A stretch of 24,000 bases of DNA from Oceanospirillaceae bacterium. GTDB taxonomy: Bacteria; Pseudomonadota; Gammaproteobacteria; Pseudomonadales; Litoribrevibacteraceae. The DNA lies in NCBI GenBank assembly GCA_015665455.1, contig JADFAD010000013.1, forward strand, positions 70,918 through 94,917. The letters run 5' to 3'. A program made the translations under genes and the position numbers. The notes below the pieces were generated by a model. The model searched no databases and was not told where the DNA came from. It saw only the letters and a list, made by a program, of their open reading frames with translations. Numbering within the stretch: position 1 is the stretch's first letter; each line of letters opens with the position of its first letter. This document shows positions 1,287 to 16,397 of the stretch, one piece after another.

Positions 1287-1317
1287 ACAAGGTACTTAAA
1301 AAACCGAAGGACTGGAT

Positions 1318-1605
1318 TTTGAAAATGAGAATTATACTTAGTTTAGCTAGTTTACCCGTTCTGTTAATGCTTCAAGGTTTTGGGGAGACAAAACTTGAGG
1401 CCTTACAAAAAGATGCTGTCGCATTTTGTGAGGTTCATAAGCTTAGCTCTTGGCAAACATTCTTTTCACAGCAACCTTCAAGCATAAGTGAAGTGGAATC
1501 CGGCTTGTATGATGAACTGGACAACAGGATTGAAAAAGTCATTACAACCTCTGAATTTTCCGAAGTAATAACAGAACTCAATCAGGTTCAATGGCGAAAG
1601 CAGCT
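1318..1605 (+). repeat. Paralogous repeat: 5' ~290 nt of the Cys-pair lipoprotein gene family (decayed copy A')
   Basis: Collinear with 5663-5952, roughly 85% identity by eye. The family ATG is changed to TTG at 1318, and a 3-nt deletion lies near 1378. Confidence 0.7.
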
Positions 1606-2697: not shown

Positions 2698-3162
2698 ATG
2701 ACACGGAGCTGTCCCATGATTTTTAACTTTTATAAAATTAAACTACTAGCGTCTTTGAGCATTTTTAGTTTATCAGCTTGTGCAGCAACAAATGGCAGTT
2801 GTACAAATTCGGAAGTCTATTTTTCATGCGACTCACCAAAAATCCACGCTGAACTTTGTAAAGACGAAACACAACAATTCCTGATCACCTTAAATGAATC
2901 AAGCACGAAATCAAAAGTAGCATTATCAGGAGAAGCGGATAATCTATTTTCTAAATCAAGTTATCACCGTTTCAAAGTTACGGATCATGTAGTCACCTTC
3001 GACAATAATGGCAACAAAGTCGAACTATATGACCACTTTAGTGAAGAAACAGGTGAAACCTTCCGTGAACTGGGCGTTATTGTTTACGGTGATACACCAA
3101 TCACTTATAAATGTGCTGAGAATTCATCAAGCAAATTAGCTGAGTTAAGTAACACTCAATAA
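2698..3162 (+). CDS. Lipoprotein, putative cognate immunity protein of the muramidase
   Basis: The ATG lies 1 nt after the muramidase stop (TAACATG). A signal peptide with lipobox LSAC is present (LLASLSIFSLSAC). The gene is followed by a strong terminator. Its 3' end is duplicated at 239-390. Confidence 0.7.
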   Translation: MTRSCPMIFNFYKIKLLASLSIFSLSACAATNGSCTNSEVYFSCDSPKIHAELCKDETQQFLITLNESSTKSKVALSGEADNLFSKSSYHRFKVTDHVVTFDNNGNKVELYDHFSEETGETFRELGVIVYGDTPITYKCAENSSSKLAELSNTQ

Positions 3163-3193
3163 GAAAGTTAACCGACCTTAGAAGATAGTCTTT

Positions 3194-3225
3194 AACCCTC
3201 AATATTTCTATTGAGGGTATTTTTC
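3194..3225 (+). terminator. Rho-independent terminator
   Basis: CCCTCAATA (3196-3204), loop tttc, TATTGAGGG (3209-3217), then TATTTTT. Confidence 0.65.
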
Positions 3226-3371
3226 AATCATATTCATGCACTTCTAATTTAAATTCAGGAAGCCTCTTACCTCTCTATCGACTCTGGTTTCAAATCTGTT
3301 TTTGATCGAATCGACCAGTGATATAAATCACGTAAACTAAAGCCAAAGAAAACAAACGCAAGTAAACAATA

Positions 3372-3806
3372 ATGAAGCATCTACTCACCATTTTAATAGC
3401 AATGTTCAGCTCGTTTATTCTTGGCTGTACTTCAGAGGAAACAAGCCCTTCTGAAACGAAATCTAAACAAGCCATTCACCTTTCTGAATCTCAACAATAT
3501 TGTGATTTATACAAACCAAAACGCTGGCTTGAAATGAGAAAAACAATGACTTTTCCTGAAATGGTAGAACACCATAACAAAAGCGTTGAATCGGTCATTC
3601 AAACAAGTGAATTCAGACAGATATTAAGTGGAATTAATGACATTGAACTTTATTCAGTAGGCCATCCTAAAAGAGCCGATAATGCAGAGGCGCTTTATGG
3701 ATATACTGTAAATGAGATTTCAAAACTGACTCATTCAGACTTTTCTTGCCCGAACTTAAAAATCTATTACCAACAACTGTTTATCGACACCTCGTTATCA
3801 CTATGA
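3372..3806 (+). CDS. Lipoprotein, divergent paralog (B) of the repeated Cys-pair lipoprotein family
   Basis: Lipobox FILGC is present. It aligns with 5663-6343 at QQYCDLYKPKRW / AAFCEIHNLNSW, VESVIQTSEF / IEKVIKTSEL and EISKLTHSDFSC / KISKLIKEDWEC, so both Cys are conserved. Confidence 0.65.
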   Translation: MKHLLTILIAMFSSFILGCTSEETSPSETKSKQAIHLSESQQYCDLYKPKRWLEMRKTMTFPEMVEHHNKSVESVIQTSEFRQILSGINDIELYSVGHPKRADNAEALYGYTVNEISKLTHSDFSCPNLKIYYQQLFIDTSLSL

Positions 3807-3823
3807 AATTAACGAATTGGATT

Positions 3824-3967
3824 ATGAAAACAAAGCCTTTAATTGGTTTAATCACCTTACCCGTTCTGTTAATTCTTCAAGGCTGTTTTGGGGAGACAAA
3901 ACTTGAGCATGAACGGGCAGAGAACGCCGAATTACTTAAGAGATTACGAGATGCTGAGTTGAAGTAA
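3824..3967 (+). pseudogene. Chimeric 47-codon ORF: the 5' 84 nt of the lipoprotein family fused to a tail homologous to the 3' end of the NTase-HEPN gene
   Basis: 3824-3908 is nearly identical to 5663-5746 (MKTKPLIGLITLPVLLILQGCFGETKLE). The tail at 3909-3967 (HERAENAELLKRLRDAELK stop) aligns in frame with the minus-strand 9491-9408 (ERERAEK[EAAQKQL]EEALKKLRDAGLE stop). Confidence 0.55.
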
Positions 3968-4325
3968 ATTGATAAATATCTATATACGCTCTGCTTTCAA
4001 TCATGACGTAACAAAATAACTAACCAGTTAACACCTTCGAAACCTGACCATTGAAACACAAAAATATATAAGACTATGATGTCTAATTAAGGTTTATGGA
4101 TTAAACCTCTCTTACAAGATCAATTAGAACGCCACTTAAACACAAGGAAACGTGGAATGATCAATCAAGGTCCATTCATCCCTCTGCCACGACCAAACAA
4201 CCCCACCCCGCTTCAATTGGTTTGAACAACAAGCAAGAGAGTATCACTTCAACAAAGCATTTAGTGCTCGAAAGAATGAAAGCAAAGTAAAAAGGCAAAC
4301 TAGGCAAGAAACGTTCAATATAGAT

Positions 4326-4865
4326 ATGGAGCACCTTAAGAAAGAGCGCATTAGAATTGCGGCTATTGCCAGTTTACAGCACGACCTAGAAGACTACAGA
4401 GCAGGAAACTTAAGCGAAGATGTAGATGATATGGCTTCAGAAAAGCATCATCCAACAAAGAAGCTTGCTAATAACCTAAGAGCCGTAAACGAACCGAAGC
4501 CAAGCCTAAATCATGACCCTCACCATATAATCATGGGCAAAGGACGGTGGCAGGCAATGCAAATGATGAATGCACGATTAACATTGCACATACACGGCAT
4601 TGGTATTAATGACCCCATCAATGGAGTCTGGCTTCCTCGAAATAAAAAAGATAAAGGACACTTGACAACGCCTAAAGCCCCAGCACATAAAGTGATTCAC
4701 CGCTTTAATTATGAAACTTGGATCTCATATAATCTTGGCTCGGTAGATATTCCCGAACATGTTTTTCGAAACCGACTAAAAGCCATTAAACACGGCCTTA
4801 AATATGGTGGTTACCCACTGAAGATTATTGAGAAAAAAGATAAAAACTGGATAGGTGCTGAGTAG
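4326..4865 (+). CDS. AHH-family (HNH/Endonuclease VII fold) nuclease toxin domain protein, probably an orphan C-terminal toxin module
   Basis: The motif layout matches the AHH family: DPHHIIMG ... GIGINDPINGVWLPR ... HKVIHRFNYETW. The reading frame stays open for 55 codons upstream (from 4161) with no ATG, GTG or TTG. Confidence 0.65.
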   Translation: MEHLKKERIRIAAIASLQHDLEDYRAGNLSEDVDDMASEKHHPTKKLANNLRAVNEPKPSLNHDPHHIIMGKGRWQAMQMMNARLTLHIHGIGINDPINGVWLPRNKKDKGHLTTPKAPAHKVIHRFNYETWISYNLGSVDIPEHVFRNRLKAIKHGLKYGGYPLKIIEKKDKNWIGAE

Positions 4866-4867
4866 CA

Positions 4868-5443
4868 ATGGACGTATATCAAATTAAATTTATTCCTGAG
4901 CGTTTCAAAGCGTTTCAGCTCGACTTATTAGACCTTTCTAAACAATTAGGAAAAACAAAACAACTAAGAGAACTAATGCGTCAGCCTATCACTAACGAAT
5001 CTTGGGTTGATATATGGAATGGAGAAATTAAGGGAGACTTTAAAAAATTATCTCCAAAAAGCACTGAAATACCGGATATTTCGTGGTGGTATCACAACAA
5101 GCTAATTCTAACTGAAAAAGCGCATTCTGTTCTTAAAGACTACCTGCAACCAGACGGTGAGTTTCTACCTGTTTTTTCTGAAGGCCAGAAAATGCACGTA
5201 TTCAATTGCCTTTCATTCGCGGAAGAAGACAAAGGGCTTACAGAACAGAAATTCTTGGATGGCTACGAAGATGGACTTAAATCGCTGGCTTTCAATGAAG
5301 CTGATATTAAACCAAGAATGGTCTTTAAGTCCAAGATGGAAGGTTGTAATCGACTTTATGCCCCCCAGAAACTAAAAGACTGTTGTGAAGAGTTTGGCCT
5401 TGAAGGCTTGAGGTTTGACGCGAATTTAATTGACCCCTTTTAG
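4868..5443 (+). CDS. Putative immunity protein for the AHH nuclease (Imm11/DUF1629-like by pattern)
   Basis: It starts 2 nt after the toxin stop (TAGCAATG). There is no signal peptide. The pattern resembles DUF1629/Imm11 proteins that accompany AHH toxins: LILTEKAHSVLKDYLQPDGEFLPV ... VFN ... LKDCCEEFGLEGLRFD. Confidence 0.55.
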   Translation: MDVYQIKFIPERFKAFQLDLLDLSKQLGKTKQLRELMRQPITNESWVDIWNGEIKGDFKKLSPKSTEIPDISWWYHNKLILTEKAHSVLKDYLQPDGEFLPVFSEGQKMHVFNCLSFAEEDKGLTEQKFLDGYEDGLKSLAFNEADIKPRMVFKSKMEGCNRLYAPQKLKDCCEEFGLEGLRFDANLIDPF

Positions 5444-5662
5444 TTGTAGATTCGTTTCTTCTGGCCTAGCCAACGGTTCGTTTTACTTAATAGTCGTGCG
5501 GGGGTTAACTTTTGGGTTATTGCTCTCAGAATGTTATTTACTGAAAAGATAGAGTTTCATTTATTCAAATGAAAACAGAAGTTGGCCAGCCCCATTACAA
5601 TAAATACATGAATTAACCTAATGGCTTGAAGTAAAAACCTATAAATACTACTCGACCAAATT

Positions 5663-5952
5663 ATGAAAACAAAACCTTTAATTGGTTTAATCACCTTACC
5701 CATTCTGTTATTGCTTCAAGGCTGTTTTGGGGAGACAAAGCTAGAGTCGGTACAAAAAGATGCCGCTGCATTTTGTGAGATTCATAACCTTAACTCTTGG
5801 CAAGCGTTCTTTTCACAACAGCCTGCTGGAATCAATGAAGTGGATTCTGGCTTGTATGATGAACTGGACAGCAGAATTGAGAAAGTCATTAAAACCTCTG
5901 AACTTTCAGGAGTAATAACAGAACTCAATCAGGTTCAATGGCGAAAACAACT
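5663..5952 (+). repeat. Master copy of the repeated lipoprotein 5' segment
   Basis: It matches 3824-3908 (84 nt, a few mismatches) and 1318-1605 (about 85% identity by eye). Confidence 0.7.
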
Positions 5953-6343
5953 GTATCCAACTGCTATTGAAAAGATCAGTAAACTAATTAAAGAAGATTG
6001 GGAATGCAGTTATTATGAAGAATTTTACTCAATCAAAGCTGAGAAAGTATCCGATTTTAAACAAGCTGAAACTTTAACTATCAATATCTCGGGTGAGGGC
6101 TTAATTTCTATCGCCCTAGCTCCGCCACAACAAGTTGAGATCACAGAGTTCTACGATTCATTGAAACAAGTGCTCCGTGAACAAGCAATCTCCTCCGTCA
6201 ATATTGCCCCTCATAAAACTACTTCCGCAAAAATCATTGCAGAGATCATGAAAACGGTAGGTAAACTCGGAATTAATGATGTAAATCTGAAAGCAGAGGA
6301 TGAACAATTGGCTGAACTGCAGAACTTATTGAGCCAAGACTGA
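5663..6343 (+). CDS. Lipoprotein, full-length member (A) of the repeated Cys-pair family
   Basis: Signal peptide with lipobox LQGC is present. The gene encodes 226 aa. Its 5' end is repeated at 3824-3908 and 1318-1605. A hairpin follows the gene. Confidence 0.75.
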   Translation: MKTKPLIGLITLPILLLLQGCFGETKLESVQKDAAAFCEIHNLNSWQAFFSQQPAGINEVDSGLYDELDSRIEKVIKTSELSGVITELNQVQWRKQLYPTAIEKISKLIKEDWECSYYEEFYSIKAEKVSDFKQAETLTINISGEGLISIALAPPQQVEITEFYDSLKQVLREQAISSVNIAPHKTTSAKIIAEIMKTVGKLGINDVNLKAEDEQLAELQNLLSQD

Positions 6344-6966: not shown

Positions 6967-7142
6967 AAATCAATTACCTTAAATTTGAGAATCAATGAAT
7001 ACGAGTAACATTGATAATAGTCCTTATTCACCTGGTATTCTTTCTTCACCCCTACTCAAAATCAAAACCGAAATTGTCTAAGGCAATATTTCGTTGTCAC
7101 CATAAACGCCTGGTGACGAAGGTAATATAAAAAACAGCTCTT

Positions 7143-7376
7143 CTACGAAAACCCCATAATCATCACAGATACTCTGTACATGAGCTTAACGAATTGAGCA
7201 TCTGGCATTTCTTCGAAAATACCAGAGCTTGGTTTATCTGAGATAGAGCCACTTGTTTTCTTATTAATTGAAAGCTCGACCGCTTTCCTAATCTGTTTCA
7301 AGTAGTCTGGATGAAGTAAATCGACTACGCCAGAGAAACCGCCATCATCCAACGTGAGCATATAAACCGAAGCCAT
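7143..7376 (-). CDS. Hypothetical protein (77 aa)
   Basis: ORF only; no motif was recognised. It lies 9 nt downstream of a mini-lipoprotein ORF. Confidence 0.4.
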   Translation of the reverse strand: MASVYMLTLDDGGFSGVVDLLHPDYLKQIRKAVELSINKKTSGSISDKPSSGIFEEMPDAQFVKLMYRVSVMIMGFS

Positions 7377-7385
7377 TGTTGCAGC

Positions 7386-7481
7386 TTAAGAGTCCCCTTT
7401 GTAGGGAGGAGTAATTTTGGTATCAACGCTTTGGCAAGCTTGTATCAAAAACAATAAGGGAATGAGTAGATAGTACTTCAT
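7386..7481 (-). CDS. Possible 31-aa mini-lipoprotein (below the ORF-track length cutoff)
   Basis: Hand translation of the minus strand gives MKYYLLIPLLFLIQACQSVDTKITPPYKGDS stop. It has a signal-like N-terminus with lipobox LIQAC. Confidence 0.3.
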   Translation of the reverse strand: MKYYLLIPLLFLIQACQSVDTKITPPYKGDS

Positions 7482-7753
7482 ATTTTCTCTTTATTTAATC
7501 GGGATAATCGACCTCATGGCGCGTTCTTCTCAAAACGCCGTGTAGTTTTACCTAAGTTTGACGAACACAAGCCAATCGGAGTCAGAGTAAGGAATCAACC
7601 ACAAACACAACTTAAAACAGAGTCGAAGCGAATATCAACTTACTATGACCCCATTGATTCTTGATCGAAAGGCCACTCCAACTCAGTTCCTCCATATGCG
7701 ATAAAAGGGATAAGAAGTGATATTAATAATGTGATTCCCATTCTCATAAAATT

Positions 7754-7825
7754 TAGCGCTGCGTTTACGGCTGATTGCTGGCTTAGAGCGCCGGGGAAAG
7801 CCAGTCCACAACAGAGGATTATCAG
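7754..7825 (+). repeat. Left copy of a degenerate direct repeat bracketing the NTase-HEPN/RT cassette
   Basis: Four collinear blocks are shared with 10589-10673: tagcgct (7754-7760), ggctgattg (7769-7777), ggcttaga (7780-7787) and gattatca (7817-7824). Confidence 0.35.
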
Positions 7826-7828
7826 AAG

Positions 7829-9349
7829 CTATGTTGTTTCGAGTACCCATGTTGCCACCCATTTATCTATCAGGAATTGTGTGCTCCCTATAGTCATTCT
7901 TAACCAGTGCGTTCGCTCATCGCTTGGTAGAATCTTTGTGGAATATAAAATCGCTCTACGCCCTCGTGAACTCGTATTATATATTTGAGACTTCATATGG
8001 CGAACCCAAGCAATATTGTTGTTAGTAACAGCAGCTATAGCCTGGTTTTCAATGTTAGCTGAAGAGTTGATTAGGTCTTGAGCATTTTGCCCTTGTAATA
8101 GAACTGCATGATGAGCGACAAACCACTCAAGCCAATATCTCGCTAAAGGATTCTTTATAGAATCTGATGCACAGATCGCCTCGATTTCACCCTGATAGTT
8201 TAGCGCACCATTCTCACCAACTATTTGACTAATATAAATCATGGCATCACTAACAACAGGTAGAAAGAATTGGAAATTAGCGAGTATAGGTGCGACTAGA
8301 ACTGAACTGTGCATTGTCCGCGCCCTGCGGATAATACCTTTGGCAAGACCAACATCTAATTTACTTTGATCTATGGCTTTATTTATAGCAACCAGAAACG
8401 CTTGTTCTGCTGCTTCATCTACATCTATTTCGACTTCGTGTTCTTCGACTTCACCAGTGTAAGGATTGAATATCTCCAAACCCTCAAAAATCTCTTCTTT
8501 TTCTAGATCATATGGATTTTGTAGGTATTCAGAAACATACTTTTCAGCTTCCATAATTTTTGTTTTTCCAGAGGCTAAAGTAAGCCGATGGTTCTCATAC
8601 AAATAAGTAGTCAAACTTCTAAGCGCACCATCCAGTTGCCCTGTGTCATTTGCGAAGACACGTATATCATCTACATATCTGGTAAAATTCAAGCCAAGCC
8701 CCTGAAGAAATTGATCTACATCTGTCATTAAGGCTTCTGACATAACAACACTGGCTGCAGGTCCAACGGGTATTCCTTGGGAAGTTTTGCCATTAATTCT
8801 AGATAAGAAGGATTCAATATCTTTAGCTTTGTTTTTTAATTCTGCATCTGCGAATTCAATAGCGTTGTTTAATCGGTGTAGATATATTTGATTGTAAAAG
8901 TCAGTTATATCTGTAGCTAAGATATACTGAAATTGGCCTGCTAGCTCTATCGTTCTTGAATCAAAGTCTGGGTAGCCACCACCTGCAGAAAAGAAACTAC
9001 CTTCATGCATTTGCAATCGATATGAGCATGCTGTTTTAGATTCTACGGGTAAACGTGCAGCCTCCACCTTCTCAGCAATTTCGTATGCCATAGCGGTATA
9101 TATAATTGCATCAACTGGCTCTAGCTGATGCACAATTCTATAGGTACCATTAGCTTTAATAGCTGGTACCGTATGCGGAGGAAAGATCCATAACTTTTCG
9201 ACATTCTTGCTGGAAAGCTCATTTTTCACTTCAGTCCAATTGTGCCAGATCGCATCAAATTCAAACGGCTTAGGAAAGAAGTCTGAATCATAGTACTTCT
9301 CAATATGTTGTTTGGCGAAATCTAAGGCCTCTTCCGTTAGTTTGCTCAT
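7829..9349 (-). CDS. Reverse transcriptase, UG/Abi-like (defence-associated type), with a ~200-aa helical C-terminal extension
   Basis: RT motifs are present: YRIVHQLEPVDAIIY (RT1/2-like), ATDITDFYNQIYLH (motif A), QGIPVGPAASVVMSE (motif B), RYVDDIRVF (motif C; YVDD is encoded at 8666-8677) and LTLASGKTKI (motif E-like). The ATG at 9349 is preceded by GAGG 8 nt upstream; the ORF track starts one codon earlier at TTG 9352. Confidence 0.9.
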   Translation of the reverse strand: MSKLTEEALDFAKQHIEKYYDSDFFPKPFEFDAIWHNWTEVKNELSSKNVEKLWIFPPHTVPAIKANGTYRIVHQLEPVDAIIYTAMAYEIAEKVEAARLPVESKTACSYRLQMHEGSFFSAGGGYPDFDSRTIELAGQFQYILATDITDFYNQIYLHRLNNAIEFADAELKNKAKDIESFLSRINGKTSQGIPVGPAASVVMSEALMTDVDQFLQGLGLNFTRYVDDIRVFANDTGQLDGALRSLTTYLYENHRLTLASGKTKIMEAEKYVSEYLQNPYDLEKEEIFEGLEIFNPYTGEVEEHEVEIDVDEAAEQAFLVAINKAIDQSKLDVGLAKGIIRRARTMHSSVLVAPILANFQFFLPVVSDAMIYISQIVGENGALNYQGEIEAICASDSIKNPLARYWLEWFVAHHAVLLQGQNAQDLINSSANIENQAIAAVTNNNIAWVRHMKSQIYNTSSRGRRAILYSTKILPSDERTHWLRMTIGSTQFLIDKWVATWVLETT

Positions 9350-9407
9350 CAAAAATACCTCTATGGTTTTACCATGATCTGGCGGACACCTAGATAAGAT
9401 TTAATAT

Positions 9408-10541
9408 TCACTCCAACCCTGCATCCCGTAATTTCTTCAACGCTTCTTCCAACTGCTTTTGAGCCGCTTCCTTCTCAGCTCTTTCACGCTCCAACTCCAC
9501 CTCTTTTTCAGCCAACAACTCTTCCTGCTGTAACACCAACACTTCTGGCAGTGGTGTGTCTTTCAGGGTATCAAGATCCAAAAAGCGATAAGGCAATTTT
9601 TGGCTGTTGGAGTAGTTTTGTTCAGGGATAAAGCCATCGATGGTGTTCAGGCTTTGTTGGTACACCCATTGCTGAAAGTTAGCCACCCAGTGGGTGAGGA
9701 TGTCCAATACCTCTTTGCTGACTTCGTAATTGGGTTTGTAGCGGGAATCAATATAGGAATCACCAAAAAAAGCGAAGTGTTTCCTATCTTCTTTTGTGTC
9801 ACTAGGGAAAATGCTTTTAATCTCTGGGGCCAGAGTGGCTACCCTACTACGTAGTTCATACAGTTTATGAGTGCGGGGTTTGTAATGGGTAGTGACCAGT
9901 AAATATAAGCCAAACAAACGCTCTGTCATTTGATGTAAGCTAAAGATGGCACCGCTTAATGCGCCTTTCTGGTAGAGGTATTCAAAGGTCTGTTGAGATT
10001 CAACGGCTTTTTGATAGAAACGCTCAAAGTAATTGATGCTGATTTCGCGGCGTTGTGCAGGGGAAAGCTGTTGCGGTTGGGCCAGCTTAACATTGTCCTC
10101 AAACAACACGACCCCTTCATTGACTACATCGAGGTAAAAGTACTCACTGCGATTGAGGCTTTTATTCAGGCTATCGAGGGTTTCATAAATAACGTGGAAG
10201 GTGGACGTCAGTTCTGGGCTCTCTTCAATCAGGCCAATGAACTTCTTATGCAGATTGGATTTCTTGGCGGATTCTTTACTCCGTAATACCACTAAAACAT
10301 CGACGTCAGAGTTATATTCCGATACCGCACCGTTACTGTCTATACGGCGGTCGTTGATAAAATCGCCACGGGCGTAACTGCCGAATAACCAGATCATGGC
10401 CACGTCTTTTTTGCACGTCTGGTGAATCAGCTTCACCGCCGTTTCAAGTTCCGCCTGAATGTTGGCCGGGACATGATCCAGTGAAGTATTAAATTCAGTG
10501 CTTGGGGCTGTCATTGCAGTGGGTAGACCTTTCCGTGTCAA
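9408..10541 (-). CDS. Fusion protein: MNT-type (pol-beta superfamily) nucleotidyltransferase domain, HEPN-like domain and C-terminal coiled coil
   Basis: NTase motifs LFGSYARGD (10362-10382) and SDVDVLVV (DVDV at 10296-10307) are present. The helical HEPN-like part reads SGAIFSLHQMTERLFGLYLL ... PRTHKLYEL ... GDSYIDSRYKPNY. The tail EELLAEKEVELERERAEKEAAQKQLEEALKKL is charged heptads. The track start is TTG 10541; the first ATG is at 10514 (MTAPSTEF). The stop lies 55 nt upstream of the RT start on the same strand. Confidence 0.8.
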   Translation of the reverse strand: MTRKGLPTAMTAPSTEFNTSLDHVPANIQAELETAVKLIHQTCKKDVAMIWLFGSYARGDFINDRRIDSNGAVSEYNSDVDVLVVLRSKESAKKSNLHKKFIGLIEESPELTSTFHVIYETLDSLNKSLNRSEYFYLDVVNEGVVLFEDNVKLAQPQQLSPAQRREISINYFERFYQKAVESQQTFEYLYQKGALSGAIFSLHQMTERLFGLYLLVTTHYKPRTHKLYELRSRVATLAPEIKSIFPSDTKEDRKHFAFFGDSYIDSRYKPNYEVSKEVLDILTHWVANFQQWVYQQSLNTIDGFIPEQNYSNSQKLPYRFLDLDTLKDTPLPEVLVLQQEELLAEKEVELERERAEKEAAQKQLEEALKKLRDAGLE

Positions 10542-10588
10542 TCGTAGTGCGGTTCACTAAAGTAAAGAACCTAAGTAGTCAACCATAG

Positions 10589-10673
10589 TAGCACTCAGGC
10601 TGATTGAAACAAACGGAAAATCGGCTTAGATATAACGGATCATTTCCTGATCGGAACACTCCCTGATTAATCA
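10589..10673 (+). repeat. Right copy of the degenerate direct repeat bracketing the cassette
   Basis: Blocks are in the same order as at 7754-7825: tagcact (10589-10595), ggctgattg (10598-10606), ggcttaga (10623-10630) and gattaatca (10665-10673). Confidence 0.35.
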
Positions 10674-10705
10674 TAAAAGTTTAACCAGAGTTCCGATTCT
10701 TTTTT

Positions 10706-10734
10706 AAAATAAGAGCCATTTGCAAAATATTCAA
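10706..10734 (-). promoter_or_regulatory. Possible sigma70-type promoter for the NTase-HEPN/RT cassette (or for a leader ncRNA)
   Basis: On the minus strand: TTGAAT (10734-10729), a 17-nt spacer, then TATTTT (10711-10706). This would give a leader of roughly 160-185 nt before the first cassette gene. Confidence 0.25.
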
Positions 10735-10752
10735 AGACAGCAATGATCTAAT

Positions 10753-10908
10753 TTATTTCGTAATTTTCGCTTTGCCTTTACTCAGTTGCGACCTTTCTTG
10801 CGCAGCAAATTTTACAGCCTTTGTACGCGCATTCTCTAAAGTAACCTCGCCTTCCAGAGGTTTAGTCTGTTTTTCATGATCCAGTAAAGGTTGTTTACTC
10901 TTCATCAT
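10753..10908 (-). CDS. Possible 51-aa lysine-rich ORF (below the track cutoff)
   Basis: Hand translation gives MMKSKQPLLDHEKQTKPLEGEVTLENARTKAVKFAAQERSQLSKGKAKITK stop. The ATGATG overlaps the stop region of the upstream ORF by 14 nt. Confidence 0.25.
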   Translation of the reverse strand: MMKSKQPLLDHEKQTKPLEGEVTLENARTKAVKFAAQERSQLSKGKAKITK

Positions 10909-11095
10909 GTTCTTCTTCCTTGAGTATGTTTTTCATATCACCACCTGACGCTAAAGAATCAGGTTCCTTTTCTGCCAGAGCTTTAAAAGCTTCTCTTTCT
11001 TCCGCTGCACGCTTTCTTATTTCTTCAATAGACCAACCAGAGTTATCTCGCTTTTCTTGTCTTGCTTCTTGAAGATCAACAACTTTCTTTTTCAT
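10895..11095 (-). CDS. Hypothetical highly charged small protein (66 aa from the ATG; 79 aa from TTG at 11134)
   Basis: MKKKVVDLQEARQEKRDNSGWSIEEIRKRAAEEREAFKAL... An AAGGG RBS lies upstream of ATG 11095. No motif was recognised. Confidence 0.45.
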   Translation of the reverse strand: MKKKVVDLQEARQEKRDNSGWSIEEIRKRAAEEREAFKALAEKEPDSLASGGDMKNILKEEEHDEE

Positions 11096-11121
11096 TACAA
11101 GACCCTTAAACACAGAGTGAT

Positions 11122-11496
11122 CTAAGAACCACAAGCCAAAATAATTCTGACACCAGAGACATCTTTAAACCCTAACTGAATATCGGATGAAAGAATAAGC
11201 GATACCTCTCTCGACTTTTTCAAAGCAAACCTGTCACTTCTTTGAACTTCATTATCAAGCATTACAGAGTAACCTGTAATTGCAGATTTACATCCGCAAT
11301 ATCCAGTGCTCTTAATGACTCTTAAATCAAGATCAAGTAACCAAAGATTGTTATGCATCGTTGTATTAGAAGACTCAATCCTCACACACTCATTCAAATT
11401 ATTTTCAATACTGACTTCATCTGAAATTGAATAAAAAGAAATACAAGACAAAAACAATACAAACAAATATTTAAAGTTCACGAACATAGGTTTCAC
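11122..11496 (-). CDS. Hypothetical secreted protein (124 aa)
   Basis: N-terminal signal-like segment FKYLFVLFLSCISFYSISDE is present, plus a Cys-containing mature part (YCGCKS, ILACGS). Confidence 0.5.
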   Translation of the reverse strand: MKPMFVNFKYLFVLFLSCISFYSISDEVSIENNLNECVRIESSNTTMHNNLWLLDLDLRVIKSTGYCGCKSAITGYSVMLDNEVQRSDRFALKKSREVSLILSSDIQLGFKDVSGVRIILACGS

Positions 11497-11514
11497 AAAT
11501 GAGACTAAGTAAAG

Positions 11515-12495
11515 TCACTCCAGTTTCCTTAATGCAAATCTGCCCCGTTCTGACACCGGGTTCGATTCATCCGATGCAAATTTTTGAGCATATGCTTTAG
11601 ACTCGTCCCCCATATTCTCAAGCTCTCGAATCAAAAATTCTGCTGATACCCTTCTTACAATGGATGAACGATCTTCAGAGGAATGTTTCAATAGTTTCAA
11701 AAACAGAGGTTTAACATCTATCTTGCGCTCAGAAACAACGGCTTTATATCTCCCCTCATTGTAACGAATGTCTGTCCACTCCCACTTTCTGCCTTCAATC
11801 CAAACTATTCGTCCTTCAAATAAGCAGCGAAAGGCTTTTGCCCTAAGTGAAGGCTGAATGGCTCGGGCTGAAATTTCTTCAATATAGTTATCGAGAATTG
11901 AAGTTCGGCCAAGTTGAGAGAATAGAGAAGTCATAGGCCCAGCGGTTGCAGTAATTAACTTAGATTTTAGAGCCTCAGCAATTTCATTTCTGGATATAAT
12001 CTGTAAAAGAACGTTTTTGTCCGCCTCTTCAATCCTTCCCCAAGAGTTCCAATTTGAAAGAGTAATACAAAGCGCTTCAACCACATGAGCGGGATCTGTT
12101 GCTATAGCAATTTCCGGAAGTTTCTCCCTAGCAGCCTCTCGAATTTGGGGCACCCAGTCATTTAATCTACGGATCGCAATCAAAAAGAAAAAAGCGTTAG
12201 GTGCTGCACCAGATAACGCCCTTAAGGTTTTCTCTCGTTTATAGCCATCCCAACTGGTCAAGTCCAGCCAAGTAAGTAGCTCACGAGACTTAGACCGAAA
12301 TATCCAATCTAGTTTTGAGGAATTATTTGAAAAACGAGAAAACTCATCTCTGATCAACCGCTCCCAATAATCTAAATTAGACAAAGGTAATTGTGAAGTT
12401 GCTTCAACAAGAGACGACATATCAGCCACTACCTTACTCCCCGAATTAATCGAGCGAGCGAAGTCTTTGACTGCTGATTTGACTTTATCTTCCAT
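11515..12495 (-). CDS. Hypothetical HEAT/ARM-like helical repeat protein (326 aa)
   Basis: Recurrent HEAT-like segments are present: GYKREKTLRALSG, NDWVPQIREAAREKLPEI, DRSSIVRRVSAEFLI, SNPVSERGRFALRKL. There is no signal peptide. Confidence 0.55.
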   Translation of the reverse strand: MEDKVKSAVKDFARSINSGSKVVADMSSLVEATSQLPLSNLDYWERLIRDEFSRFSNNSSKLDWIFRSKSRELLTWLDLTSWDGYKREKTLRALSGAAPNAFFFLIAIRRLNDWVPQIREAAREKLPEIAIATDPAHVVEALCITLSNWNSWGRIEEADKNVLLQIISRNEIAEALKSKLITATAGPMTSLFSQLGRTSILDNYIEEISARAIQPSLRAKAFRCLFEGRIVWIEGRKWEWTDIRYNEGRYKAVVSERKIDVKPLFLKLLKHSSEDRSSIVRRVSAEFLIRELENMGDESKAYAQKFASDESNPVSERGRFALRKLE

Positions 12496-12541
12496 GAGTC
12501 AAGGTTCTTGCAGATATTTCCCGAATTCAGTTATCAATTAG

Positions 12542-14427: not shown

Positions 14428-14591
14428 ATATTGACACTATTCGCACCTATACCGTCAATAATGACAATCCTGTTTTTAAACCGCAAGGGACATACTGATT
14501 AGAACAACACATACATTGTTCATTCGAAGCGCATTTACTTGCGCCTTTGAACACCGTAAGAACACACAGGACATCCCCTTAGGACAGCCCC

Positions 14592-16397
14592 ATGTTAGTG
14601 AATCATAAAGATCTTAACTTCTTGCTCTACGACGTATTCAACGCAAGCGAACTGACCGAACTGCCCCACTATCAAGATCACGATCAAACCACCTTTGATG
14701 AGGTGATCAAAACCGCCAATCGCATCGCAGAAGAGTACTTCGCCCCTCATAACAGCAAAGCGGATGAGCACGAACCGCAATTCGACGGTCTCTCCGTATC
14801 GACCATTCCAGAAGTTAAAGAAGCCTACAAACACTACGCCAATGCTGGGTTATTAAACGCACGCCAACGTTATGATGAAGGCGGTATGCAACTGCCAGCA
14901 TTAGTGCATGCGGCTTACAGTGGCTTATTTGCTTCAGCCAACCCAAGCACAGCGGGCTATACGTTTTTAACCAGTGCCGCAGCCAATGTGATTCATGCCT
15001 TTGGCACCGAAGAACAGAAATCTCAGTTCTTACCCGGCATGTGGGATGGCCGCTTTGCAGGCACCATGGCCTTAACCGAACCCGATGTGGGCTCCAGCCT
15101 TGGTGATTTAGCCACCAAAGCCACAAAACAAAGCGATGGCACCTATAAACTCAAAGGCCAGAAGATGTTTATCTCTGGCGGGGATCAAGACATCACCGAG
15201 AACATCGTTCACCTCGTATTGGCTCGTGCCGAAGGTGCGCCCCAAGGCGTCAAAGGCATCAGTTTGTTCATTACACCAAAGTACTTGATGGACGAAAACG
15301 GCGAACTGGGCGAAAGAAACGACGTTCAACTCGCGGGCTTATTACACAAGATGGGGTACCGTGGCACCACATCCACAGTACTGAATTTTGGTGAGCAAGA
15401 TAATTGCACAGGCTACTTGATAGGCGAAGAAGGCAAAGGGCTTTCTTACATGTTCAAGATGATGAACGAAGCACGAATTGGCGTGGGCCTCGGCGCAGCC
15501 ATGATTGGCTATCGCGGCTACTTGGAATCATTGGAGTACGCCAAAAACCGGCCGCAAGGTCGTCATCCATCCAGCAAAGCGAATGACAGCAAGCCCATCA
15601 ACATCATTGAGCACGCCGATGTAAAGCGCATGTTATTGGCACAGAAGTCGTATGTGGAAGGTTCATTGGCCCTATGCTTATTTGCCTCCCGTTTGGTGGA
15701 TGAACAGGAAGCCGCCAACAATGAAGACAGCGCCACGTTGCTTGATTTACTGACCCCCATTGTTAAGAGCTTCCCTTCGTATTATGGCTTGAAAGCCAAT
15801 GATTTGGCGATTCAGGTGTTGGGCGGTTCAGGCTACATTCGTGAATACCCCGTGGAGCAGTGTTACCGAGATAATCGCTTAAATCCAATTCACGAAGGCA
15901 CCCACGGTATTCAATCCCTGGATTTATTAGGCCGTAAGCTTTGGATGAAAGGCGGCAAAGGCCTTCAATTGCTATTAACTCGAGTGAACAAAACGTTGAA
16001 GCGCTGCCAAACCCATGAAGTCCTAAAACCTTTGGTAGAGAGTTACAGCAAAAAATTAACCCTCTTCTCTCAAACCACCATGCAATTAGGCCAAAATTTA
16101 CAGACGGGCAAAGTGAACGAAACTTTGGCCAACAGTGCCTTGTACCTCGATATGATGGGCAAAATGGTGGTTGCTTGGTTATGGTTAGAAATGGCCGAAA
16201 AAGCATTAAGCCTAGCGGGTGAAGGTTCAAAGAAAGAACGGGCCGAAGGCTCGAATGAAGACAAACACTTCTTGGCAGGCAAGCTGCAAGCGTGTAAGTA
16301 TTTCATTGAATGGGAACTGGGCGAAGTTCATTCTCAATCTAAACTGTTAACAGAACTCAACAGCACCTGTGCAGACATGGAAGAAGCGTGGTTCTAA
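14592..16397 (+). CDS. Large (601 aa) acyl-CoA dehydrogenase with extended N- and C-terminal domains
   Basis: ACAD core motifs are present: GTMALTEPDVGSSLGD, KMFISGGD, RIGVGLGAAMIGYRG, QVLGGSGYIREYPVEQCYRDNRLNPIHEGTHGIQ. The N-terminal RDLNFLLYDV-type segment is typical of this long ACAD subfamily. Confidence 0.9.
   Translation: MLVNHKDLNFLLYDVFNASELTELPHYQDHDQTTFDEVIKTANRIAEEYFAPHNSKADEHEPQFDGLSVSTIPEVKEAYKHYANAGLLNARQRYDEGGMQLPALVHAAYSGLFASANPSTAGYTFLTSAAANVIHAFGTEEQKSQFLPGMWDGRFAGTMALTEPDVGSSLGDLATKATKQSDGTYKLKGQKMFISGGDQDITENIVHLVLARAEGAPQGVKGISLFITPKYLMDENGELGERNDVQLAGLLHKMGYRGTTSTVLNFGEQDNCTGYLIGEEGKGLSYMFKMMNEARIGVGLGAAMIGYRGYLESLEYAKNRPQGRHPSSKANDSKPINIIEHADVKRMLLAQKSYVEGSLALCLFASRLVDEQEAANNEDSATLLDLLTPIVKSFPSYYGLKANDLAIQVLGGSGYIREYPVEQCYRDNRLNPIHEGTHGIQSLDLLGRKLWMKGGKGLQLLLTRVNKTLKRCQTHEVLKPLVESYSKKLTLFSQTTMQLGQNLQTGKVNETLANSALYLDMMGKMVVAWLWLEMAEKALSLAGEGSKKERAEGSNEDKHFLAGKLQACKYFIEWELGEVHSQSKLLTELNSTCADMEEAWF

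What the first reader, a model, noticed from the sequence alone, without database searches (positions are those of the whole stretch)
3824..4100. Truncated lipoprotein ORF ends in a tail homologous to the 3' end of the NTase-HEPN gene: a fossil of a second cassette copy in inverted orientation
- After the conserved family prefix (...GCFGETKLE) the ORF switches to HERAENAELLKRLRDAELK stop.
- At the nucleotide level, 3909-3967 aligns in frame, including the stop codon, with minus-strand 9491-9408.
- Hand counts: 16/21 over the first segment, then a 21-nt (7-codon, one heptad) gap, then 29/42 over the rest, with 24/30 in the last 30 nt.
- The junction falls where both genes encode similar residues (ETKLE in one, VELE in the other), which suggests microhomology-mediated recombination.
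- Past the stop, weaker collinear blocks continue: tatcta, atcatg, gtaa, aactaac, ccttNga, aaaca, actatgat. They match the NTase-RT intergenic region and the first ~100 nt of the RT gene, out to about 4090.
- Inference: a related NTase-HEPN/RT cassette once lay here on the + strand and was mostly deleted.
- If so, the system is, or was, multi-copy or mobile within this island.
Basis: seen in the sequence. Interest (0 to 1): 0.6.

Follow-up and report, generated by a model that had tools for sequence, protein, structure and literature searches.

The report
Lipoprotein stub fused to NTase-HEPN tail
The 47-codon ORF is a recombination scar: the first 28 codons of a lipoprotein gene joined in frame, at an 8-base microhomology, to the last 20 codons of a nucleotidyltransferase-HEPN gene that has five other copies in this genome. 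It is a real but ordinary fossil, and nothing shows a reverse transcriptase was ever attached to it.

Summary

**What the ORF is**
- ORF 3824-3967 consists of 87 nt of a lipoprotein gene 5' end (93% identical to 5660-5746) followed by the 3' end of an NTase-HEPN family gene.
- The genome holds five NTase-HEPN paralogs, all ending ...LLK(K/R)LRDAGLE*.
- The fossil aligns without gaps, in frame and stop-on-stop, best with a copy on another contig (46 of the last 60 nt). It matches the window's own copy less well (33/60).

**How strong the match is**
- Among 5,665 long ORF ends in the genome, the five best matches to the fossil are the five paralogs.
- A DNA profile of the paralogs finds 3897-3966 as the only extra genome-wide hit (E 3.3e-6).
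- The junction lies in an 8-nt microhomology, AACTTGAG.

**What is not supported**
- The claimed continuation into the NTase-RT spacer and the RT gene is not significant.
- The RT (DRT8) is single-copy.
- The other four NTase-HEPN copies have no RT next to them.
- 4157-4865 is a frameshifted AHH nuclease toxin gene, not RT debris.

In a same-genus genome the lipoprotein gene is intact and 3908-5659 is missing. So this is the fossil of a stand-alone NTase-HEPN paralog, left by illegitimate recombination in a variable toxin/defence island. It is real, ordinary and of low-to-moderate interest.

The parts
3821..3907 (+). 5' stub of the lipoprotein gene. ATG at 3824; 28 codons comprising the signal peptide, the LQGC lipobox and FGETKLE.
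   Evidence: 93% identical to 5660-5746. Homology to the same-genus genome G001 runs from 3260 and ends exactly at 3907.
3900..3907 (+). Junction microhomology AACTTGAG, shared by the lipoprotein gene (K-L-E) and the NTase-HEPN tail (Q-L-E).
   Evidence: The ungapped match to the C14 paralog begins at 3900, 8 nt before lipoprotein homology ends.
3897..3967 (+). Fossil 3' end of an NTase-HEPN family gene: the last ~20 codons plus the stop.
   Evidence: nhmmer profile hit at E 3.3e-6, model positions 1064-1133 of 1133. 46/60 nt identical to the C14 paralog. The five paralogs rank 1 to 5 among 5,665 ORF ends.
3968..4156 (+). Spacer of unknown origin, with a promoter-like site at 4051-4080 upstream of the AHH gene.
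   Evidence: No significant match downstream of any paralog or upstream of other AHH cassettes. Promoter-like site TTGAAA-18-TATGAT.
4157..4865 (+). AHH (HNH/EndoVII) nuclease toxin gene, interrupted by a frameshift near 4220. The annotated ORF 4326-4865 is only its 3' part.
   Evidence: Pfam AHH 5.2e-09. Full-length homologues of 232-253 aa align to two frames: residues 9-22 to 4181-4222 and residues 26-241 to 4221-4862.
4868..5443 (+). Cognate immunity-like gene of the AHH cassette (191 aa).
   Evidence: Always follows the AHH homologues as a ~190-aa gene. Two paralogous pairs occur in G000.
5660..6343 (+). Intact lipoprotein gene (226 aa), the full-length counterpart of the stub.
   Evidence: 91% identical to the G001 lipoprotein gene, which there directly follows the 145-aa gene.
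9408..10541 (-). Resident intact NTase-HEPN paralog.
   Evidence: Pfam NTP_transf_2, Polbeta and HEPN. 33/60 identical to the fossil tail.
7829..9352 (-). DRT8-type reverse transcriptase, single-copy. It is not part of the fossil.
   Evidence: PADLOC Drt8 1.9e-145. Only one tblastn hit in the genome.

Best explanation
ORF 3824-3967 is a chimeric pseudogene created by illegitimate, microhomology-mediated recombination in a variable toxin/defence island.

A DNA segment was ordered [stand-alone NTase-HEPN paralog] - 189-nt spacer - [AHH nuclease toxin + immunity] - [lipoprotein gene]. It became joined to the resident lipoprotein gene at the shared octamer AACTTGAG. That octamer lies at lipoprotein codons 26-28 and at codons -22 to -20 of the NTase-HEPN gene.

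Everything between the two octamers was lost, so only the last ~60 nt of the NTase-HEPN gene survive. They are fused in frame behind the lipoprotein signal peptide and lipobox. The intact lipoprotein gene now lies 1.75 kb downstream, at 5660-6343.

- **Shown:** the two homologies, the exact breakpoint, the microhomology, the multi-copy family, and the undisrupted lipoprotein gene (lacking 3908-5659) in a congener.
- **Inferred:** that the parent was a sixth, full-length paralog lying directly upstream of the AHH cassette.
- **Unresolved:** whether the loss happened in situ (deletion) or during import of the segment.

The chimeric ORF itself is most likely non-functional. The family-conserved ...DAGLE* end has changed to ...DAELK*.
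For: - Lipoprotein homology ends at 3907, both within the window and against G001. In G001 the 145-aa gene is followed directly by a full 228-aa lipoprotein gene.
- There are five NTase-HEPN paralogs in G000.
- The fossil matches the C14 copy at 53/67 nt, ungapped, in frame and with stops aligned.
- Fossil-to-paralog identity (53/69) equals paralog-to-paralog identity (51-56/69).
- The paralogs are the top 5 of 5,665 ORF 3' ends, and the codon shuffle gives 0/100,000.
- nhmmer gives E 3.3e-6 genome-wide, hitting only the last 70 model positions.
- The C-terminal motif LLKKLRDAG[LI]E* is also conserved in a 48%-identical homologue from another family of the same order.
- Other truncated copies of the family exist: the C14 copy lacks residues 1-157, and G001 keeps only a 5' stub at the site syntenic with the C4 copy.
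Against: - No sampled genome shows the postulated parent arrangement of NTase-HEPN followed by AHH. Twenty AHH-cassette loci contain no NTase-HEPN remnant, and the closest AHH homologue in the protein database is only 66% identical.
- The spacer 3968-4156 matches nothing, so the contiguity of tail, spacer and AHH in the parent is inferred.
- The exact microhomology in the true parent cannot be read, because the closest surviving paralog is only about 77% identical.
Confidence: 0.85

Rival explanations
1. A complete second NTase-HEPN/RT two-gene cassette once lay here on the + strand. Its remains extend past the stop through the NTase-RT spacer and the first ~100 nt of the RT gene, to about 4090.
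For: - Six short blocks after the stop are collinear with the spacer and RT start of the resident locus.
- One gap-lenient global alignment gave p about 0.03.
- The core SW alignment to the window copy runs about 20 nt past the stop.
Against: - Local alignments of the post-stop region are at chance level. The other global scoring gave p 0.11.
- tblastn of the RT finds nothing.
- The RT is single-copy.
- The other four paralogs have unrelated neighbours, and paralog homology ends at the stop codon.
- The coding tail is closer to the C14-type paralog than to the RT-linked copy.
- Two of the blocks fall in a promoter-like site for the AHH gene.
Confidence: 0.08
2. Chance resemblance. Glu/Lys/Leu-rich coiled-coil codons make two unrelated gene ends look alike.
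For: Against the window copy alone the match is only moderately significant. A shuffled query reaches the score in 6/400 whole-window searches.
Against: - A codon shuffle that preserves composition gives 0/100,000.
- Among all 5,665 long ORF ends in the genome, including other charged tails, exactly the five family members rank first.
- The profile E-value is 3.3e-6 genome-wide, with the next hit at 0.33.
Confidence: 0.02
3. Template-switch filler. Only a short piece of an NTase-HEPN paralog was copied into the junction during replication-based repair (MMBIR/FoSTeS-like), so no full gene ever lay next to the AHH cassette.
For: - The piece is short (about 68 nt) and bounded on the left by a microhomology.
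- The following spacer matches no paralog flank.
Against: - The piece ends exactly at the natural gene end, and the paralogs all have different downstream DNA anyway. A lack of flank homology is therefore expected under the simple deletion model too.
- No second microhomology junction can be identified at 3967/3968.
Confidence: 0.05

Closest known systems
Gene remnants and chimeric ORFs left by microhomology-mediated illegitimate recombination or deletion in bacterial variable regions
   Same: A sharp breakpoint inside an 8-nt shared sequence, loss of the intervening DNA, an in-frame fusion of two unrelated genes, and signs of decay at conserved residues.
   Different: Nothing essential differs. 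The only unusual point is that both partners belong to repeated families: three lipoprotein copies in the island and five NTase-HEPN copies in the genome.
Orphan or displaced module arrays of polymorphic toxin loci (Rhs/CDI 'orphan' toxin-immunity arrays)
   Same: Successive toxin/immunity modules (SIR2, muramidase, AHH) are separated by truncated copies of one conserved gene. This suggests repeated addition of modules by recombination in that gene.
   Different: The repeated stubs are 5' ends of a small lipoprotein gene lying downstream of each module, not 3' toxin tips preceded by core-repeat fragments. No Rhs, CdiA, VgrG or PAAR gene was seen in the window or in the ~25 kb upstream.
MNT-HEPN (type VII) toxin-antitoxin modules and fused NTase-HEPN proteins such as kanamycin nucleotidyltransferase-like proteins
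   Same: The parent family carries an N-terminal minimal nucleotidyltransferase domain and a HEPN domain (Pfam; PDB 4nqf matches the HEPN part).
   Different: Here the two domains are fused in one 375-390-aa protein with a conserved coiled-coil tail ending LLKKLRDAGLE*. The MntA match is far below the curated cut-off (18.6 vs 60 bits). Function was not tested.
DRT8 (UG/Abi class 1 defence reverse transcriptase)
   Same: The neighbouring gene 7829-9352(-) is a clear DRT8 member.
   Different: It is unrelated to the fossil. It is single-copy and absent beside the other NTase-HEPN paralogs.

Membership tests
NTase-HEPN gene family of this genome (fossil as a 3'-terminal remnant) | Nucleotide and protein homology to the family's conserved C-terminal end (...QLEQER.E...LLK[KR]LRDAGLE*), in frame and with the stop codon aligned | tested here: met
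   46/60 nt to the closest paralog, paralogs rank 1 to 5 of 5,665 ORF ends, nhmmer E 3.3e-6.
NTase-HEPN gene family of this genome (fossil as a 3'-terminal remnant) | Presence of the NTase and HEPN catalytic domains, i.e. a functional member | tested here: not met
   Only model positions 1064-1133 of 1133 are present. No other fragment is in the window.
   post-stop similarity is at or near chance, and tblastn of the RT finds nothing.
   The RT is single-copy. The four other paralogs, and homologues L012 and L041, have other neighbours.
Microhomology-mediated deletion or illegitimate recombination junction | A short identical sequence shared by both parents at the breakpoint | tested here: met
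   AACTTGAG at 3900-3907 is present in the lipoprotein gene (G001 and the stub) and in the C14 paralog.
Microhomology-mediated deletion or illegitimate recombination junction | An undisrupted or pre-event state observable in a relative | tested here: met
   G001 has the 145-aa gene followed directly by the intact lipoprotein gene, and 3908-5659 is absent.
Bacterial lipoprotein (5' stub) | Signal peptide followed by a lipobox Cys | tested here: met
   Read directly from the sequence: MKTKPLIGLITLPVLLILQG-C. Lipidation was not tested.
Integron gene cassette (considered for the NTase-HEPN unit) | An attC site directly after the gene | tested here: inconclusive
   Downstream sequences of the five copies share nothing, and inspection of them showed no consistent RYYYAAC...GTTRRRY pair. 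No dedicated attC model was run.

The most novel reading that the evidence does not exclude
The NTase-HEPN gene may be a self-contained, gene-sized mobile or amplifying unit. Its homology runs from its own promoter, about 100 nt upstream of the ATG, exactly to the stop codon. It has landed at six or more sites in this genome and is multi-copy in another genome of the order. The fossil would then mark one such landing directly upstream of an AHH toxin cassette. That would imply an undescribed way of spreading single defence or TA-like genes without recognisable transposase, integrase or attC.
Probability: 0.1. Interest if true: 0.6.

Novelty: new member of a known kind. Interest (0 to 1): 0.22.

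Why it matters
- It dates and orders events in a variable island. Relative to a congener, the island gained two separate blocks: the AHH block with the NTase-HEPN tail, and the DRT8 + NTase-HEPN block.
- It shows that the NTase-HEPN gene is a stand-alone family that is multi-copy and frequently truncated, rather than a dedicated partner of the DRT8 reverse transcriptase.
- For annotation, ORF 3824-3967 should be marked as a chimeric pseudogene, and the AHH gene as frameshifted with its start at 4157.
- It has no wider mechanistic consequence unless the family proves to be autonomously mobile.

Tried and rejected
- **blastn with 7-nt words** missed the tail homology entirely, because no exact 7-mer is shared. 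Only Smith-Waterman and profile searches see it.
- **Origin of the spacer 3968-4156.**
  - No match was found in the own genome or in 40 relatives.
  - No match was found upstream of the two AHH paralogs of G000 or of 12 AHH loci from other genomes and metagenomes.
  - No match was found downstream of any paralog.
- **NTase-HEPN remnants upstream of other AHH cassettes:** an nhmmer search of 20 loci found none.
- **Close relatives of the NTase-HEPN gene:** The search for related loci in genome contigs found only two. An order-wide search found the family in 4 of 401 genomes.
- **Exact insertion boundaries of the paralogs:** comparison with G001 failed because the flanks are too diverged or variable.
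- **Integron-cassette origin of the NTase-HEPN unit:** considered, but no consistent attC-like site was found.

Full report
**The object.** The ORF at 3824-3967 encodes MKTKPLIGLITLPVLLILQGCFGETKLEHERAENAELLKRLRDAELK*.
- Its first 87 nt (3821-3907) are 93% identical to 5660-5746, the start of an intact 226-aa lipoprotein gene at 5663-6343.
- They are also related to a third, decayed copy at 1316-1605.
- After 3907 the similarity to the lipoprotein gene stops abruptly.

**State in a relative.** The window is G000:C7:70918-94917.
- In the only same-genus genome held (G001), the homologue of the 144-aa gene (3372-3806) is followed directly by a full-length 228-aa lipoprotein gene. Nucleotide homology to the window runs from 3260 to exactly 3907.
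- Relative to G001, the window therefore carries an extra 3908-5659 plus a duplicated 87-nt lipoprotein start.
- The second half of the stub is identical to the G001 sequence, whereas the same stretch of the downstream full copy differs (read). The stub is therefore the resident copy, and the downstream copy's 5' end came with the extra segment.
- A second, independent extra block relative to G001 is 7166-11117, which holds the DRT8 RT and the intact NTase-HEPN gene.

- Smith-Waterman (+2/-3, gaps 5/2) of 3880-4330 against the reverse complement of 9150-9560 gives score 36 for 3938-3986 vs 9440-9394. None of 500 dinucleotide shuffles reached it.
- It is the best hit of 3905-4100 anywhere in the window, on either strand. 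The next best is 24, and the tile mean is 18.3 with SD 2.5.
- When a shuffled query is searched against the whole window, 6 of 400 shuffles reach 36. On this evidence alone the similarity is suggestive, not proven.
- blastn with 7-mers does not see it at all.

**The decisive evidence.**
- The genome contains five NTase-HEPN paralogs:

| Copy | Location | Protein identity to the window copy |
|---|---|---|
| Window copy | C7:80328-81458 | 100% |
| C4 | C4:345333-346481 | 90% |
| C7b | C7:129434-130585 | 81% |
| C8 | C8:209876-210973 | 62% |
| C14 | C14:36195-36896 | 76%; 5'-truncated, residues 158-377 only |

- All five end in ...LLK(K/R)LRDAGLE*. A 48%-identical homologue in another family of the order ends in LLKKLRDAGIE*.
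- The fossil aligns with the C14 copy without any gap, in frame and stop on stop: 53 of 67 nt, score 64, starting at 3900.
- At the protein level, KLEHERAENAELLKRLRDAELK* aligns with QLEQERAEKDKLLKRLRDAGLE*.
- Its identity to C14 (53/69) lies within the range seen among bona fide paralogs (51-56/69). Identity to the window copy is 36/69, because the window and C4 copies have a different, indel-bearing tail.
- Three nulls address the coiled-coil composition worry.
  - Permuting the fossil's 20 codons never reached the observed 46/60 in 100,000 trials.
  - Comparing the fossil, anchored at the stop, with the last 20 codons of all 5,665 long ORFs in the genome places the five paralogs at ranks 1 to 5. 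Their scores are 46, 40, 37, 35 and 33, against a background of 15.9 +/- 3.6 and a next-best of 31.
  - An nhmmer DNA profile of the five paralogs, searched against the whole 4.85-Mb genome, finds one additional hit: window 3897-3966, model positions 1064-1133 of 1133, E 3.3e-6. The next hit has E 0.33.
- The tail is therefore a true remnant of an NTase-HEPN family gene.

**The junction.**
- The match to the paralog starts 8 nt before the lipoprotein homology ends. AACTTGAG is present both in the lipoprotein gene (..ACA AAA CTT GAG) and in the paralog (..CAA CTT GAG).
- This is the signature of microhomology-mediated illegitimate recombination.
- The fusion is in frame, which has a one-in-three chance. 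This is why an ORF survives.

**What lies after the stop.**
  - Local alignment of 3986-4330 vs the RT 5' region gives z <= 0, and 3986-4100 gives z about 1.3.
  - 3968-4156 against the 400 nt downstream of each paralog is at chance.
  - A gap-lenient global alignment over 125 nt gives p about 0.03 with one scoring and 0.11 with another, uncorrected.
  - tblastn of the RT protein finds nothing.
- From 4157 the sequence is the true 5' end of the AHH nuclease gene.
  - Full-length homologues of 232-253 aa include two paralogous toxin-immunity pairs in G000, at C1:1241764-1243091 and C5:207408-208732.
  - Their N-terminus...RPSNPTPLELAIY..., aligns to MINQGPFIPLPRPNNPTPLQLV* starting at ATG 4157. 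The alignment then continues in another frame from about 4221. The gene is therefore frameshifted.

**Is the lost unit an NTase-HEPN/RT cassette?** No evidence supports this.
- The RT is a clear DRT8 member and is single-copy.
- The four other paralogs are followed by unrelated, often convergent genes.
- Two external homologues also have no RT next to them.
- Homology among the paralogs runs from a promoter-like region about 100 nt upstream of the ATG to the stop codon and no further.
- This agrees with an earlier follow-up in this scan (e1-2495759), which found the RT and the NTase-HEPN gene to be independent. I reached the same conclusion from the copy numbers and neighbourhoods above.

**Mechanism proposed.**
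- A segment [NTase-HEPN paralog]-[189-nt spacer]-[AHH + immunity]-[lipoprotein gene] was joined to the resident lipoprotein gene at AACTTGAG. All but the last ~60 nt of the NTase-HEPN gene were lost.
- This happened either by deletion in situ from a longer array or during import of the segment, with the right-hand crossover in or beyond the lipoprotein gene.
- The island already shows the same pattern once more. A 290-nt lipoprotein stub at 1316-1605 precedes the muramidase module, so modules seem to have been added repeatedly next to this gene.
- Truncation of the NTase-HEPN family is common. The C14 copy lacks its first 157 codons, and G001 retains only a 5' stub at the site syntenic with the C4 copy.
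- The fossil's changes at conserved positions (DAGLE to DAELK) fit relaxed selection.

**Limits.**
- The parent arrangement was not found in any sampled genome.
- The family is rare, present in 4 of 401 genomes of the order.

**Verdict.** This is an ordinary recombination scar, useful for annotation and for reconstructing the island's history.

Noticed in passing
window 4157-4865: The AHH nuclease toxin gene is frameshifted near 4220. Its true start is ATG 4157 (MINQGPFIPLPRPNNPTPLQLV*), and the 179-aa ORF from 4326 is only the C-terminal part. Two intact paralogous toxin+immunity pairs lie at G000:C1:1241764-1243091 and C5:207408-208732.
   Followed up: yes
G000: C4:345330-346457, C7:129434-130588, C8:209888-211060, C14:36198-36899, plus window 9408-10541: The NTase-HEPN gene is a five-copy family (62-90% aa identity). 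Its homology runs from a conserved promoter-like element (..CCGTTTGTTTCA..TGCTACTATG) about 100 nt upstream of the ATG exactly to the stop codon, and the flanks are all different. It is rare in the order (4/401 genomes) but also has four copies in G281. How it spreads is unexplained.
   Followed up: partly
G000:C8:211072-212040(-): By my own recognition of the sequence (not run through a family search), the N-terminus of an ORF looks like an integron-integrase (IntI) (..TIRQAIRLRHYSKRTESGYIYWVKRYIHFHNKRHP..). It lies convergent to, and 12 nt from, the C8 NTase-HEPN paralog, about 500 nt from the contig end.
   Followed up: no
window 7166-11117 vs G001:C12 (L039, about 14447-14818): The whole block holding the DRT8 RT, the NTase-HEPN gene and small ORFs is absent from the same-genus genome, where about 370 nt stand in its place. 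The flanking segments 7079-7165 and 11118-12497 are conserved (82% and 92%).
   Followed up: partly
window 1316-1605 and 211-486: There are further scars in the island. One is a 290-nt lipoprotein 5' stub in which the start codon has changed to TTG and a 3-nt deletion has removed the lipobox Cys. The other is a copy of the muramidase 3' end (211-239 ~ 2592-2620) joined to 235-486 ~ 3007-3258 (90%). Together they suggest repeated module addition and deletion.
   Followed up: partly
G001:C15:33787-34217 (L034): The same-genus genome keeps only a 5' stub of the NTase-HEPN gene (residues ~22-67, 80% aa identity) plus its upstream region, next to nitrate-reductase-like genes. The site is syntenic with the intact C4 copy of G000.
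   Followed up: partly
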